Virus record (IMG/VR): IMGVR_UViG_2684622582_000006
Location: 1 to 23,577 of that record
Length of the DNA stretch: 23,577 bases
Reading direction: 5' to 3' (one strand)
Source: a virus
Lineage: Duplodnaviria > Heunggongvirae > Uroviricota > Caudoviricetes
Numbering within the stretch: position 1 is the first letter of the stretch; each line of letters starts with the position of its first letter. A model generated the notes under the pieces. The model was not told the origin of the DNA, searched no databases, and saw only the letters and a list, made by a program, of their open reading frames with translations. Of this stretch, positions 4,886 through 7,271 are shown piece by piece. The translations under genes were made by a program, and so were the position numbers.

Positions 4886-4949
4886 GCCAGAAAAACAAAA
4901 ACCCGCCGAAACGCTGATTTACGGGGATCCCTCAGCGCCGAAGCGGGTT
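4886..4949 (-). terminator. long imperfect hairpin with T-tract downstream of restriction endonuclease gene
   Basis: AACCCGC-cgaaa-CGCTGA-(14 nt)-TCAGCG-ccgaa-GCGGGTT; on the minus strand it is followed by TTTTGTTTTTCT. Confidence 0.45.
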
Positions 4950-5021
4950 AGTAAAAATGCACTGAAGTCAATGACGTGCCATCACAGTTAAAATATGACA
5001 GACTCTATTCACATAGAGATG

Positions 5022-5900
5022 TCAGACTGCAAGATCCAAGGGAAGATCAGAAATATCCTTTAATCTTTTACCATTAACCATCACGGAAAGCATGTCAGCT
5101 GCATCGCTGAGCCCCAGTATTTCAACTGCTGATATAAGTTCATAAAGCGCAAAATGATACACGCAATCTATATCACCAGTACCAAGAGCAATGGACGCCA
5201 GACGACTTGGAGTAGGCTCAGCAGTAACAACCATTACATGAGGGAGATTTCCCTTGCGGTTGCGAATAAGGTTTAATGCCTCAGAACGAGCATTCTGGGC
5301 CCGGTCGCTTCTTATTGTCCATTTGCAGGAAATACTTGCGTGTAATATCGGTTTCCCACCATTCGAACTCCTCAGAGCTGACATGCGGGTAACAGAGTCA
5401 TCCACCAGTAATTCAGGACTGTTGATCACTTGATCGCATTCAGGTTCTCTTTCGACAACAATATCTGGTGAAATCGTATAATCACTCCCCAGTGCAGCAG
5501 CCAGCTGAGGGTTACTTTTTGCAGCACTATCCAATGCTATAAGATGGGCATATTGTTCATATTTAGCTATCTCTAATCTGTTTCTACCAGAAACCTGATG
5601 TACATTCCATTTTCCAGGGCGTAAGTGGCTGAGTTTAAAAAAGGTTTTTCTTATAAACTCTGCGCAGATACTCTCGAACTGATTACCAGATGTTTGTCCT
5701 GCAACACGTTCACCAATCGTTTCAGCCTGCAAGAAGCGAGCAATTTCTCTTGCTATAGCTTTACTGTTTTTGTTACTGCTATCTGCATTACTAACAACTC
5801 CGGCAGTATTAATTGTGAGCGTATTCAGTAACAATTGGGCGTGAAACTCCTTTCTGGCTTCAGCAAAACCAGCTATGCTGTCAACCAAATCTCCATTCAT
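5022..5900 (-). CDS. Type II restriction endonuclease, NgoMIV/Cfr10I-like family (tentative)
   Basis: 292 aa from internal ATG (MNGDLVDSIAGF...; SD GAAGGAAA) 14 nt after the methyltransferase stop. Contains the segments ...SPDIVVERE... and ...SCKWTIRSDRAQNARSE... that I recall as the PD...(S/E)xK-type active-site region of the NgoMIV/Cfr10I group, and a C-terminus ...MVNGKRLKDISDLPLDLAV resembling NgoMIV as remembered. Confidence 0.65.
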   Translation of the reverse strand: MNGDLVDSIAGFAEARKEFHAQLLLNTLTINTAGVVSNADSSNKNSKAIAREIARFLQAETIGERVAGQTSGNQFESICAEFIRKTFFKLSHLRPGKWNVHQVSGRNRLEIAKYEQYAHLIALDSAAKSNPQLAAALGSDYTISPDIVVEREPECDQVINSPELLVDDSVTRMSALRSSNGGKPILHASISCKWTIRSDRAQNARSEALNLIRNRKGNLPHVMVVTAEPTPSRLASIALGTGDIDCVYHFALYELISAVEILGLSDAADMLSVMVNGKRLKDISDLPLDLAV

Positions 5901-5913
5901 TTCCAGATTTCCT

Positions 5914-7038
5914 TCAGGCTGCTTGACTATTCTTACTGATTTTATTCTTATACCGTCCCTGCAAAACTCCATACACATATTGTGCGATTTTTGCCGCAAA
6001 TAGCGGTGGAACAGCATTCCCGATCTGCTTTGCAATCTCAGTTTTTGAACCGGTAAAAATGAAATTATCAGGAAAAGACATTAATCTCGCTGCCTCACGA
6101 TGAGTTATTGGCCGATCCTCTTCCGGATGTAAATATCGCCCTTTCTCCGGTTTGAAAAACTCAGTACGAATCGTTACTGAAGGTCTGTCCCACCACAGAC
6201 GCCCAAACAAATCGGTCCCTCCAGATTTCTTTTTTAGCCAGCACGCCGGGGTTATATCAGGTCTTTTTTTCTGTAAATCGAAACGGTTACCTCCTGGTGG
6301 AACCGCTTTATATCGCTCCAGAGAAACAGGTGTGGGATTACGCCCAAAATGTAAGTTCAGCGGAGGAAGTTCATTACGAATATCAGTTCCAACAGGAGCA
6401 GGTAAGTCACCAATTGCATCACGCGTACAGACCCATTCTGGCAAAGCGACATCCTTATTAGGGGAACGATGCGTTGGTGCTGGCGGGAACGCCGGAATAC
6501 TATGCACATCGAAGAGCTCTCGTTTGATACCGATTGCTATCGTTCGTTTTCTTGTCTGAGGTACTCCATAGTCAGCAGTATTCAACACCATTGGATTAAG
6601 CAGAATAAAGCCCATGGATTCCGCTCTAAACGTAATGTCCGCAAACTCATCGCTTATCAGCAATCCTGGTACATTTTCCATGACGAACATGCAAGCCCTT
6701 GAACGCTCAATGACATCCATATAAGGCTCCCACAATGCTCTTCGGTGATCACCATCACGATTCTTATTCAATAAACTGAATCCCTGACACGGGGGGCCAC
6801 CTATGACCACATCAGCCTCAGGAACAGTATTACTGGATACCCACTCCTCAATATTTGCCTGAACTCCATGCAAACCAAAATTGGCATTGTATGTATTTAT
6901 AGCTGCGGCATTATTATCAATAGCAAGGATACTTTCAAAGTGGTCGGACATCTCTCCATGAAGAAAACCATAAGATAATCCACCTGCTCCACAAAAGAGG
7001 TCTATCACTCTGAATTTATTTAATTCTTTCATCCGCAC
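5914..7038 (-). CDS. DNA (cytosine-5) methyltransferase
   Basis: Canonical m5C-MTase motifs: I FCGAGGLSYGF, IV GGPPCQGFS, VI ENVPGLL, VIII QTRKR, X GNAV. GTG start at 7038 (SD GAGG 8 nt upstream) or ATG at 7032. Confidence 0.9.
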   Translation of the reverse strand: MRMKELNKFRVIDLFCGAGGLSYGFLHGEMSDHFESILAIDNNAAAINTYNANFGLHGVQANIEEWVSSNTVPEADVVIGGPPCQGFSLLNKNRDGDHRRALWEPYMDVIERSRACMFVMENVPGLLISDEFADITFRAESMGFILLNPMVLNTADYGVPQTRKRTIAIGIKRELFDVHSIPAFPPAPTHRSPNKDVALPEWVCTRDAIGDLPAPVGTDIRNELPPLNLHFGRNPTPVSLERYKAVPPGGNRFDLQKKRPDITPACWLKKKSGGTDLFGRLWWDRPSVTIRTEFFKPEKGRYLHPEEDRPITHREAARLMSFPDNFIFTGSKTEIAKQIGNAVPPLFAAKIAQYVYGVLQGRYKNKISKNSQAA

Positions 7039-7271
7039 ACCATATGCCTCAGATTAATGTTGAGCATCCTGCAGGACGCGTAATGTTAACTGGGGCTTTT
7101 CTCTATCTGCCGTTGGTGTTCATGCCCGAGGCAGATAGCCTCAAGCACCCGCAGCAATTTTACTTAACTCCCCTTTTCCCGCAAACCGTTTTTACCCCCA
7201 GCGGCAAATCGAATACACCATCAGCGCCACGGCCATTGCAATTCCTGTCGTTGTGAATGCCTCAGGCCAGG

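What the first reader, a model, noticed from the sequence alone, without database searches (positions are those of the whole stretch)
4886..7271. Self-contained Type II restriction-modification cassette inserted in the prophage nin-type region
An m5C methyltransferase with all canonical motifs is followed 14 nt later by a 292-aa ORF that looks like an NgoMIV/Cfr10I-family endonuclease. The pair sits between a ~220 bp intergenic region (possible own promoter) and a long hairpin with T-tract, i.e. it has the shape of an autonomous moron rather than part of the phage replication/nin programme. The local sequence looks more AT-rich than the flanking phage genes. If NgoMIV-like, the target would be around GCCGGC; such sites occur in this prophage (for example inside the tRNA-Thr gene and near 10850 and 12358), so the prophage must be self-protected. 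A lysogen would gain restriction-based defence and post-segregational addiction from this cargo.
Basis: partly seen in the sequence, partly recalled or inferred. Interest (0 to 1): 0.65.

Follow-up and report, generated by a model that had tools for sequence, protein, structure and literature searches.

The report
Prophage restriction-modification genes grafted onto hok leader
This is an ordinary, apparently intact NgoMIV-type restriction-modification gene pair carried by a Rac-like E. coli prophage. The unexpected part is that it has no upstream region of its own: it replaced the hok killer gene and now sits behind that locus's promoter and RNA leader.

Summary
On the minus strand, an m5C DNA methyltransferase gene (7038/7032..5914) is followed 13 nt later by a 292-aa gene (5900..5022). 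That product matches Pfam NgoMIV_restric over its full length (E 4.7e-127). It is 65.5% identical to crystallised NgoMIV, and every catalytic and base-contacting residue is conserved. R therefore almost certainly cuts G/CCGGC.

The "self-contained moron" reading is only partly right. The region upstream of M is not the cassette's own. It is the promoter and 5' leader of a hok/sok toxin-antitoxin locus (Rfam sok, 65.7 bits). It matches hokW of phage 933W up to the mok ribosome-binding site, where M begins. The mok/hok ORFs and the sok promoter are gone. The terminator hairpin is shared with a cassette-free phage, so it belongs to the slot.

All 60 complete E. coli genomes that carry the pair have this same graft. 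One IMG/VR prophage keeps the native AT-rich upstream region. The M gene is also not of the lineage that usually accompanies NgoMIV homologues.

RefSeq already names the genes. It is a new member of a known kind, with an apparently undescribed promoter capture. Activity and M specificity are inferred, not shown.

The parts
7157..7185 (-). hok-type promoter: -35 TTTGCG (7185-7180), 17-nt spacer, -10 TAAAAT (7162-7157), predicted +1 at G7150
   Evidence: Read from the sequence. Its position is homologous to the region upstream of the hokW mRNA 5' end in 933W and 606R7. It falls below the threshold of the consensus scan. hok promoters are described as weak (PMC3874152).
7046..7150 (-). 5' leader of a hok mRNA: first stable hairpin, Sok-target hairpin and mok Shine-Dalgarno GAGG (7050-7047), without mok/hok
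   Evidence: Rfam RF01794 'sok' scores 65.7 bits (gathering score 59), E 8.7e-13, with the well-aligned part at model positions 1-89. Column-by-column alignment to hokW/mokW of 933W breaks right after CTGAGGC. The predicted fold keeps the hok 5' hairpin.
5914..7038 (-). m5C DNA methyltransferase gene (M). In-frame starts are GTG 7038 (8 nt after the mok SD) or ATG 7032
   Evidence: Pfam PF00145 E 3.6e-54, TIGR00675 dcm, PADLOC MTase_II. 98% identical to RefSeq 'DNA cytosine methyltransferase' WP_001427299.
5022..5900 (-). NgoMIV-family type II restriction endonuclease gene (R), 292 aa
   Evidence: Pfam PF09015 E 4.7e-127. PDB 1FIU/4ABT E 1.6e-118, 65.5% identity. E76, D146, K193, E207, D40, Q69, R197-S-D199-R200 and R233 match NgoMIV E70, D140, K187, E201, D34, Q63, RSDR and R227.
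4990..7045 (-). Approximate extent of foreign DNA relative to hok-bearing phages (5' junction exact at 7045/7046; 3' junction about 4975-5000)
   Evidence: Alignments A1 and A2 with 933W and 606R7. GC 43.4% against 47-49% in the flanks.
4891..4949 (-). Intrinsic terminator (hairpin 4949-4900 plus U-run 4899-4891). It carries a 32-nt expansion relative to related phages
   Evidence: -28.6 kcal/mol, z -2.9. A shorter version, ACCCGCTTCGGCGGGTTTT, is present in cassette-free 606R7 and in other cassette-bearing loci.
7192..7275 (-). Conserved 27-codon hydrophobic ORF (MTWPEAFTTTGIAMAVALMVYSICRWG) whose ATG overlaps the upstream gene's stop. It is part of the backbone, not the cassette
   Evidence: Read from the sequence. 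Conserved in 933W and 606R7.
2059..2134 (-). tRNA-Thr gene containing two of the window's four GCCGGC sites (2063, 2129). These are self-targets that need methylation

Best explanation
This is a bicistronic M->R type II restriction-modification operon carried as cargo by a Rac-like lambdoid prophage. R is a close NgoMIV relative and is predicted to cut G/CCGGC. M is an m5C methyltransferase that must protect those sites, including the four in this prophage.

The pair sits in a variable cargo slot just upstream of the DUF1367/YbcO/Q block. It got there by displacing the mok/hok reading frames and the sok promoter of a resident hok/sok locus. As a result it lost its native upstream region.

It is inferred to be transcribed in the lysogen from the captured weak constitutive hok promoter (+1 about 7150). 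M would be translated from the former mok Shine-Dalgarno, and R from its own AGGAA site 13 nt after the M stop. The slot's intrinsic terminator (4949-4891) would stop this transcript before the Q antiterminator gene. During lytic growth, antiterminated pR transcription in the same direction would read through.

Shown: gene identities, conserved residues, junctions and distribution. Inferred: enzymatic activity, M specificity, promoter use, phage defence and addiction.
For: R identity: Pfam NgoMIV_restric E 4.7e-127; PDB NgoMIV E 1.6e-118. The motif PD-X46-K-X13-E, the RSDR motif, and the outer-base-pair determinants D34, Q63 and R227 are all conserved. Their roles are taken from PMC3413111 and PMC4652773.

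M: full-length PF00145 match and all motifs.

Integrity: both ORFs are intact here and in 24 of 27 related E. coli loci.

Graft: the Rfam hok-leader hit, and an alignment break exactly after the mok SD. The sok promoter TTGCCT-17-TAACCT of 933W is absent, while 55 of 71 nt of the Sok-complementary stretch is kept.

Native upstream region: it is present in L106, L107, L110 and L122 but not here.

Distribution: 60 of 60 complete E. coli genomes with the M gene carry the chimeric junction, and none carries the native upstream region.

Terminator: it folds strongly and pre-exists in cassette-free 606R7.

Cargo slot: 933W and 606R7 have hok/sok there. The closest relative, E7-1N7, has hokD plus HsdM/HsdS plus an IS4 remnant.
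Against: There are no expression, methylation or cleavage data. The hok promoter hexamers are weak (3 of 6 and 5 of 6) and did not pass the consensus scan.

M specificity cannot be read from sequence. M is only about 26% identical to the methyltransferases that accompany most NgoMIV homologues, so matched specificity rests on co-inheritance with an intact R.

GCCGGC is not depleted in the window, so there is no signature of past restriction pressure. Two relatives have a frameshifted R (L121, L123), which shows the system can decay.
Confidence: 0.75

Rival explanations
1. The pair is a fully autonomous moron with its own promoter. The hok-like sequence upstream is just neighbouring backbone with no role in expression.
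For: The cassette keeps a TATGGT hexamer just upstream of the M start. In the native L106 context this hexamer sits 17 nt after TTGATA, a good sigma-70 promoter that would give a near-leaderless M mRNA. One promoter-like site lies inside M at 6938-6910.
Against: In the window the -35 partner of TATGGT has been replaced by hok leader sequence. Only about 8 nt of non-hok DNA precede the M start. The promoter scan found 2 sites against 4.6 expected by chance, so the internal site is not significant.
Confidence: 0.12
2. The system is silent or decaying: R is inactive or not expressed, and M survives as a de facto orphan methyltransferase.
For: L121 and L123 have R truncated at 108 aa with M intact. 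There is no GCCGGC avoidance in the prophage. The native regulatory region has been lost.
Against: R is full length here with every catalytic and recognition residue conserved. It is 99% identical across more than 20 loci with intact ORFs.
Confidence: 0.12
3. The specificity is Cfr10I/Bse634I-like (RCCGGY) or otherwise broader than GCCGGC.
For: The M lineage differs from the M.NgoMIV type, and the family includes RCCGGY enzymes (PMC3413111). M could methylate a broader set such as RCCGGY or CCGG.
Against: R has RSDR rather than the RPDR of Cfr10I (PMC2532715). It keeps D34 and R227, the extra determinants that make NgoMIV strictly G:C-specific (PMC4652773). It is 65.5% identical to NgoMIV, and no other PDB enzyme reached E 0.01.
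Confidence: 0.08

Closest known systems
NgoMIV restriction endonuclease of Neisseria gonorrhoeae (PDB 1FIU, 4ABT; type IIF, G/CCGGC)
   Same: 65.5% identity over 281 residues with the same length. Identical catalytic residues (E70, D140, K187, E201) and DNA-contact residues (D34, Q63, RSDR, R227).
   Different: Different host and carrier (an E. coli lambdoid prophage). It is paired with a methyltransferase of another m5C lineage. Tetramer formation and the two-site requirement were not tested.
RefSeq 'NgoMIV family type II restriction endonuclease' WP_001012717 plus 'DNA cytosine methyltransferase' WP_001427299 in E. coli O157:H7 and other STEC prophages
   Same: The same gene pair at about 97% DNA and 98-99% protein identity, with the same hok-leader junction and the same terminator.
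   Different: The prophage backbone differs (DUF968/RusA/Q there; DUF1367/YbcO/DUF1133 here). The junction differs by 1-2 nt (ATG instead of GTG upstream start). The window's terminator has a 32-nt expansion.
hok/sok (hokW/mokW/sokW) type I toxin-antitoxin locus of Stx phage 933W
   Same: The upstream small ORF, promoter region and 105-nt mRNA leader are about 93-96% identical, up to and including the mok SD. It occupies the equivalent position between early genes and the nin/Q block.
   Different: The mok and hok ORFs, the sok promoter, the first 16 nt of sok and the hok mRNA 3' end are all absent. An M-R operon takes their place.
R-M systems with known expression control (C-protein systems, methyltransferase autorepression, EcoRI antisense RNAs; reviewed in PMC3874152)
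   Same: The M-before-R order in one operon is a known way to delay restriction.
   Different: No C-protein ORF and no N-terminal HTH on M (only 8 residues precede motif I). The control region is borrowed from a toxin-antitoxin locus. No paper describing such a graft turned up in the five library searches aimed at it.

Membership tests
NgoMIV / CCGG-family PD-(D/E)XK restriction endonucleases (Pfam PF09015) | Full-length match to the family profile above the curated cut-off | tested here: met
   423.3 bits against a cut-off of 23.2, profile positions 1-275 of 275. PADLOC REase_II E 1.7e-125.
NgoMIV / CCGG-family PD-(D/E)XK restriction endonucleases (Pfam PF09015) | Catalytic motif PD-X46-53-K-X13-E plus the N-terminal Glu (PMC3413111) | tested here: met
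   P145-D146, K193 (46 residues between), E207 (13 between) and E76, aligned to NgoMIV D140, K187, E201 and E70.
NgoMIV / CCGG-family PD-(D/E)XK restriction endonucleases (Pfam PF09015) | R-(D/E)R motif that reads the CCGG core | tested here: met
   R197-S198-D199-R200 corresponds to NgoMIV RSDR 191-194 (PMC2532715).
NgoMIV / CCGG-family PD-(D/E)XK restriction endonucleases (Pfam PF09015) | Determinants of the outer G:C pair specific to NgoMIV (D34, Q63, R227) | tested here: met
   D40, Q69 and R233 are conserved (PMC4652773; PMC3413111).
NgoMIV / CCGG-family PD-(D/E)XK restriction endonucleases (Pfam PF09015) | Cleavage of G/CCGGC; tetramer acting on two sites (type IIF) | not testable with these tools
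   Requires biochemistry.
C5-cytosine DNA methyltransferases (Pfam PF00145) | Conserved motifs I, IV (PCQ), VI (ENV), VIII, IX and X in order | tested here: met
   PF00145 at 184.8 bits, profile positions 1-320 of 324. Motifs read in the translation.
M.NgoMIV-type methyltransferase lineage (the M found next to most NgoMIV homologues) | Close similarity to the ~320-aa 'GGVPCPPFS ... GNAFPPP' methyltransferases upstream of NgoMIV-family R genes | tested here: not met
   Only 25-33% identity, often only over the N-terminal half, to the upstream M of loci L004-L083. Window-type M (73-98% identity) occurs only in the 33 cassette loci L001, L084-L110, L119 and L121-L123.
C5-cytosine DNA methyltransferases (Pfam PF00145) | Methylation of GCCGGC (specificity matched to R) | not testable with these tools
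   No characterised close relative was named among the 120 best hits. Matched specificity is inferred from co-inheritance with an intact R.
hok/sok type I toxin-antitoxin locus | hok mRNA 5' leader with its conserved hairpins | tested here: met
   Rfam RF01794 at 65.7 bits against 59. 51 of 55 matches to 933W across the Sok target.
hok/sok type I toxin-antitoxin locus | mok and hok reading frames | tested here: not met
   Homology ends right after the mok SD, 9 nt short of the mok ATG. No Hok-like ORF follows.
hok/sok type I toxin-antitoxin locus | sok promoter and complete sok gene on the opposite strand | tested here: not met
   The promoter and the first 16 nt of sok are replaced by M coding sequence. 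No plus-strand promoter-like site was found in 4700-7400.
Phage moron (autonomous unit with its own promoter and terminator) | Promoter and terminator that travel with the cargo genes | tested here: not met
   The promoter and leader belong to the displaced hok locus. The terminator is present in cassette-free 606R7. The native upstream region is seen only in L106 and in the related cassettes L107-L110 and L122.

The most novel reading that the evidence does not exclude
The retained hok leader may not be an inert scar. It could place the M-R operon under hok-type post-transcriptional control. The leader still carries 55 nt of near-perfect complementarity to Sok RNAs, and cassette-bearing O157:H7 genomes have about 4-7 further hok-leader loci that could supply Sok in trans. 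Sok pairing and RNase III cleavage could then tune M/R levels. That would link a restriction-modification addiction module to the cell's type I toxin-antitoxin RNA network.
Probability: 0.1. Interest if true: 0.6.

Novelty: new member of a known kind. Interest (0 to 1): 0.35.

Why it matters
About 1% of complete E. coli genomes (60 of 5426), many of them O157:H7 and other STEC, carry this prophage-borne GCCGGC system. It could shape which phages and plasmids enter these pathogens. It would also add an m5C mark that standard PacBio methylomes detect poorly (my own knowledge, not checked here).

The anatomy is a clean natural example of one addiction or defence module replacing another at a prophage cargo hotspot. 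The incomer re-uses the loser's promoter, ribosome-binding site and terminator. That is useful for understanding how morons are built and exchanged. It is also a caution for annotation: an Rfam 'sok' hit here does not mark a toxin-antitoxin system.

Tried and rejected
1. I tried to assign M's specificity from named relatives. The 120 best hits are all generic 'DNA cytosine methyltransferase', NCBIfam gives only the dcm superfamily, and PADLOC gives only generic MTase_II or DruM. It remains unresolved.

2. I expected M to be an M.NgoMIV homologue. This was rejected, because it belongs to a different lineage.

3. I looked for GCCGGC avoidance as a signature of restriction. There is none: 4 sites against 5.9 expected.

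4. I looked for a cis-encoded Sok replacement promoter on the plus strand within M. None was found.

5. The consensus promoter scan did not flag the hok promoter here, nor the annotated sokW promoter in 933W. The scan is therefore too strict for these promoters, and its silence is uninformative.

6. I considered whether the terminator belongs to the cassette, because L106 keeps it. This was rejected: cassette-free 606R7 has it with the same downstream flank, and L106 simply has a further ~400-bp insertion after it.

7. Five literature searches for a prior description (NgoMIV + prophage; GCCGGC + O157; hok + restriction-modification; NgoMIV + O157; hok + lambdoid + moron) found nothing relevant.

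8. The exact source genome was not found. The best complete E. coli genome covers 69% of the window at 96% identity.
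Full report
**What is in the sequence**

All genes of the finding are on the minus strand. An ORF at 7038..5914 (GTG; the in-frame ATG at 7032 gives the 372-aa product that RefSeq annotates in relatives) matches Pfam DNA_methylase over profile positions 1-320 of 324 (E 3.6e-54). It shows the canonical m5C motifs FCGAGG, GPPCQGFS, ENV, QTRKR, REAARLMSFPD and GNAVPP.

It matches Pfam NgoMIV_restric over the whole profile (E 4.7e-127).

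Downstream, a hairpin at 4949-4900 followed by a U-run folds at -28.6 kcal/mol (z -2.9 against shuffles). The insert is 43.4% GC, against 47.4% and 48.7% in the flanks.

**What R is**

The only solved structure that the R product hits is NgoMIV (1FIU/4ABT), at E 1.6e-118 and 65.5% identity over 281 residues.

- The family's catalytic signature PD-X46-53-K-X13-E plus an N-terminal Glu (PMC3413111) is present as P145-D146, K193, E207 and E76.
- The RSDR motif that reads the CCGG core (PMC2532715) is present as R197-S-D199-R200.
- The residues that make NgoMIV strictly specific for the outer G:C pair are all conserved as Q69, D40 and R233. These are Q63 (PMC3413111) and D34 and R227 (PMC4652773).

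I therefore predict G/CCGGC cleavage with high confidence, and I regard a Cfr10I-like RCCGGY specificity as unlikely.

GCCGGC occurs four times in the window: 1655, 2063 and 2129 in the acceptor stem of the phage tRNA-Thr, and 10847. This is close to the 5.9 +/- 2.3 expected by chance.

**What M is, and what it is not**

I fetched 138 loci that encode NgoMIV-family R genes from genomes and viral contigs and examined the gene upstream of R in each.

- In most loci from other bacterial groups (R 47-79% identical), the upstream gene is a ~320-aa methyltransferase of a different lineage (GGVPCPPFS ... GNAFPPP). It is only 25-33% identical to the window's M, or is not detected at E 1e-10.
- The window-type M (372 aa) accompanies R only in the near-identical E. 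coli loci and in five related viral contigs (L107-L110, L122; M 73-79%, R 82-85%). The closest named homologues of M come from Enterobacterales such as Klebsiella, Pantoea, Cronobacter and Yersinia.

So this NgoMIV-type R has a different methyltransferase partner. That M protects GCCGGC is inferred from co-inheritance with an intact R over this divergence. No characterised close relative could be named.

**The upstream region is a captured hok/sok leader**

A search of phage genomes matched only the two edges of the finding. The upstream edge (window 7046-7300) hit the hokW/mokW/sokW locus of Stx phage 933W and many relatives. Rfam finds its 'sok' family at 7150-6969 on the gene-sense strand (65.7 bits, gathering score 59), with only model positions 1-89 well aligned.

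A three-way alignment shows near-identity with 933W and phage 606R7 across four elements:
- the end of the upstream gene;
- a conserved 27-codon hydrophobic ORF (7275..7192);
- the hok promoter region (-35 TTTGCG 7185-7180, -10 TAAAAT 7162-7157);
- the whole 105-nt hok mRNA leader.

The identity stops exactly after CTGAGGC, the mok Shine-Dalgarno. Where 933W continues with the mok start codon, the window continues ATATGGT-GTG-CGG-ATG-AAA, which is the start of M.

The mok and hok ORFs are gone. So are the sok promoter (TTGCCT-17-TAACCT in 933W) and the first 16 nt of sok. Fifty-five of the 71 Sok-complementary nucleotides remain, with 51 of 55 identical. No promoter-like site exists on the plus strand. 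The leader is still predicted to form the stable 5' hairpin typical of hok mRNAs.

**The native upstream region exists elsewhere**

One E. coli prophage contig (L106) carries the same M-R genes at about 98% identity but without the hok leader. Its upstream sequence is AT-rich (TTGATA-17-TATGGT, immediately before the M start). It resembles a conserved element (…ATATGGTAAATTATAG…) upstream of the related cassettes L107, L110 and L122. The window has lost all of that except the last ~8 nt.

The chimeric junction is the rule in E. coli:
- 26 of 27 near-identical loci examined have it (25 of 26 IMG/VR contigs, plus strain 2014C-3051);
- all 60 complete genomes that carry the M gene have it (60 of 5426, many of them O157:H7);
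- none of those 60 has the native upstream region.

The few nucleotides at the junction vary between lineages. The in-frame upstream start is GTG here, ATG in most relatives and absent in L121.

**The terminator belongs to the slot**

Cassette-free phage 606R7 has the hairpin ACCCGC-TTCG-GCGGGT plus T-run, with identical downstream sequence. There it follows a hok gene and a 130-aa ORF. The 3' junction of the foreign DNA lies about 30-50 nt after the R stop, at roughly 4975-5000. The window's version of the hairpin carries a 32-nt expansion not seen in the relatives.

The position is a cargo hotspot:
- 933W and 606R7 hold hok/sok plus a small ORF;
- the closest relative of this prophage (E. 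coli E7-1N7, 96% identity over 69% of the window) holds hokD, an HsdM/HsdS pair and an IS4 remnant;
- a related R-M cassette sits upstream of the same conserved backbone sequence in L108.

**Context**

The window is a Rac-like lambdoid prophage. On the plus strand it carries:
- intR (22342-end);
- ralR/RalA;
- recT and recE;
- a RelB/ParE-like pair;
- a cI-like repressor.

On the minus strand, in order, it carries:
- cro/YdaS, YdaT, the O/P-like replication genes and DUF1627;
- two Ea22-like genes and DUF551;
- the M-R unit;
- DUF1367, YbcO and a DUF1133/Q-like gene;
- four tRNAs;
- a lysozyme gene.

The M-R unit is co-oriented with the early-right operon.

**How it most likely works**

Shown: an intact M->R gene pair of the stated families, its junctions, and its distribution.

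Inferred:
- In the lysogen the operon is transcribed from the captured hok promoter, which is described as weak and constitutive for hok mRNAs (PMC3874152).
- M is translated using the former mok SD, which sits 8 nt before the GTG.
- R is translated from its own site.
- The slot's terminator keeps this transcript from reaching Q.
- During induction, antiterminated pR transcription would read through, so progeny DNA would be modified.

The lysogen would restrict incoming unmodified DNA that bears GCCGGC, and loss of the prophage could cause post-segregational cutting. None of this was tested here.

**Rivals**

A fully autonomous cassette with its own promoter is unlikely, because the -35 partner of the native promoter has been replaced. 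A decaying or silent system cannot be excluded: two relatives have a frameshifted R, and one has a frameshifted M. The window's copy is intact, however.

A more speculative reading is that the retained Sok-target hairpin lets Sok RNAs from the several sibling hok loci regulate M-R. Cassette-bearing genomes show 3-8 hok-leader places each. Against this, the segment that pairs with Sok's 5' tail is lost, and from my own recollection of the hok/sok literature (not checked here) that tail initiates binding.

**Novelty**

RefSeq already names both genes by family, and the enzyme family is structurally characterised. The system itself is therefore a new, uncharacterised member of a known kind.

Two points are apparently undescribed in the searchable library. 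One is the replacement of a type I toxin-antitoxin gene by an R-M operon that re-uses its promoter, leader and SD. The other is the pairing of an NgoMIV-type R with a different M lineage. Both are the sort of mosaicism expected in lambdoid phages. Interest is moderate to low.

Noticed in passing
window 21635-22021: A RalR/RalA type I toxin-antitoxin pair. The RalR-like ORF is at 21635..21844 (+). The RalA sRNA is at 21843-22021 (-), with Rfam RF02694 at 216.7 bits. It lies between recT and xis/int, as in Rac.
   Followed up: partly
window 15080-15616: A RelB-like antitoxin ORF (15080..15334) and a ParE/RelE-family toxin (15335..15616, Pfam ParE_toxin E 6.6e-17) lie immediately next to the cI-like repressor gene. 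This is a third addiction-type module in the same prophage.
   Followed up: partly
L142 (E. coli E7-1N7) 5326-9785, equivalent to window ~4900-7200: In the closest relative of this prophage, the same slot upstream of the DUF1367 gene holds hokD, a hypothetical gene, an HsdM/HsdS pair with no HsdR, and an IS4 remnant. The slot is a hotspot for swapping defence and addiction cargo.
   Followed up: partly
L121 and L123 (R gene); L085 (M gene): In two otherwise near-identical cassettes, R is cut to 108 aa by a frameshift while M stays intact. In L085, M is cut to 259 aa while R stays intact, a combination that should be lethal unless it is a sequencing error or R is silent.
   Followed up: partly
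window 4900-4949: The terminator hairpin carries a 32-nt expansion (CGCTGAGGGATCCCCGTAAATCAGCGTTTCGG-like) relative to the short ACCCGC-TTCG-GCGGGT hairpin in 606R7, L001, L084 and L106. Its origin is unexplained.
   Followed up: partly
window 7192-7275: A 27-codon hydrophobic ORF (MTWPEAFTTTGIAMAVALMVYSICRWG) overlaps the upstream gene's stop codon in an ATGA arrangement. It is conserved upstream of hok in 933W and 606R7, and a 34-aa hypothetical protein is annotated at the equivalent position in strain 2014C-3051. It may be a small membrane peptide.
   Followed up: no
L107, L109, L110, L122, about 60-110 nt upstream of M: Related R-M cassettes share a conserved upstream element (GTATGGGTATTTGTACAGC ... 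ATATGGTAAATTATAG). It may be their native promoter or operator. L106 keeps part of it, and the window has lost it.
   Followed up: partly
window 6969-7150 and L002 2485-2555: The Rfam family named 'sok' (RF01794) matches the strand that, by the 933W annotation, is the hok mRNA sense strand, not the antisense Sok RNA. Here it flags a locus that has no toxin gene at all, which could mislead automated TA annotation.
   Followed up: partly
window 1981-2295: A four-gene tRNA cluster (Met-CAT, Leu-CAG, Thr-TGT, Gly-TCC) lies downstream of the Q-like gene. The relative E7-1N7 has a single tRNA-Ile there. The tRNA-Thr acceptor stem supplies two of the window's four GCCGGC sites.
   Followed up: partly
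window 7029-7043 and L106 equivalent: A 4-codon mini-ORF (ATG GTG TGC GGA TGA) ends in an ATGA overlap with the M ATG at 7032. A similar mini-ORF is present in the native-context copy L106. It may reflect translational coupling or may be chance.
   Followed up: no
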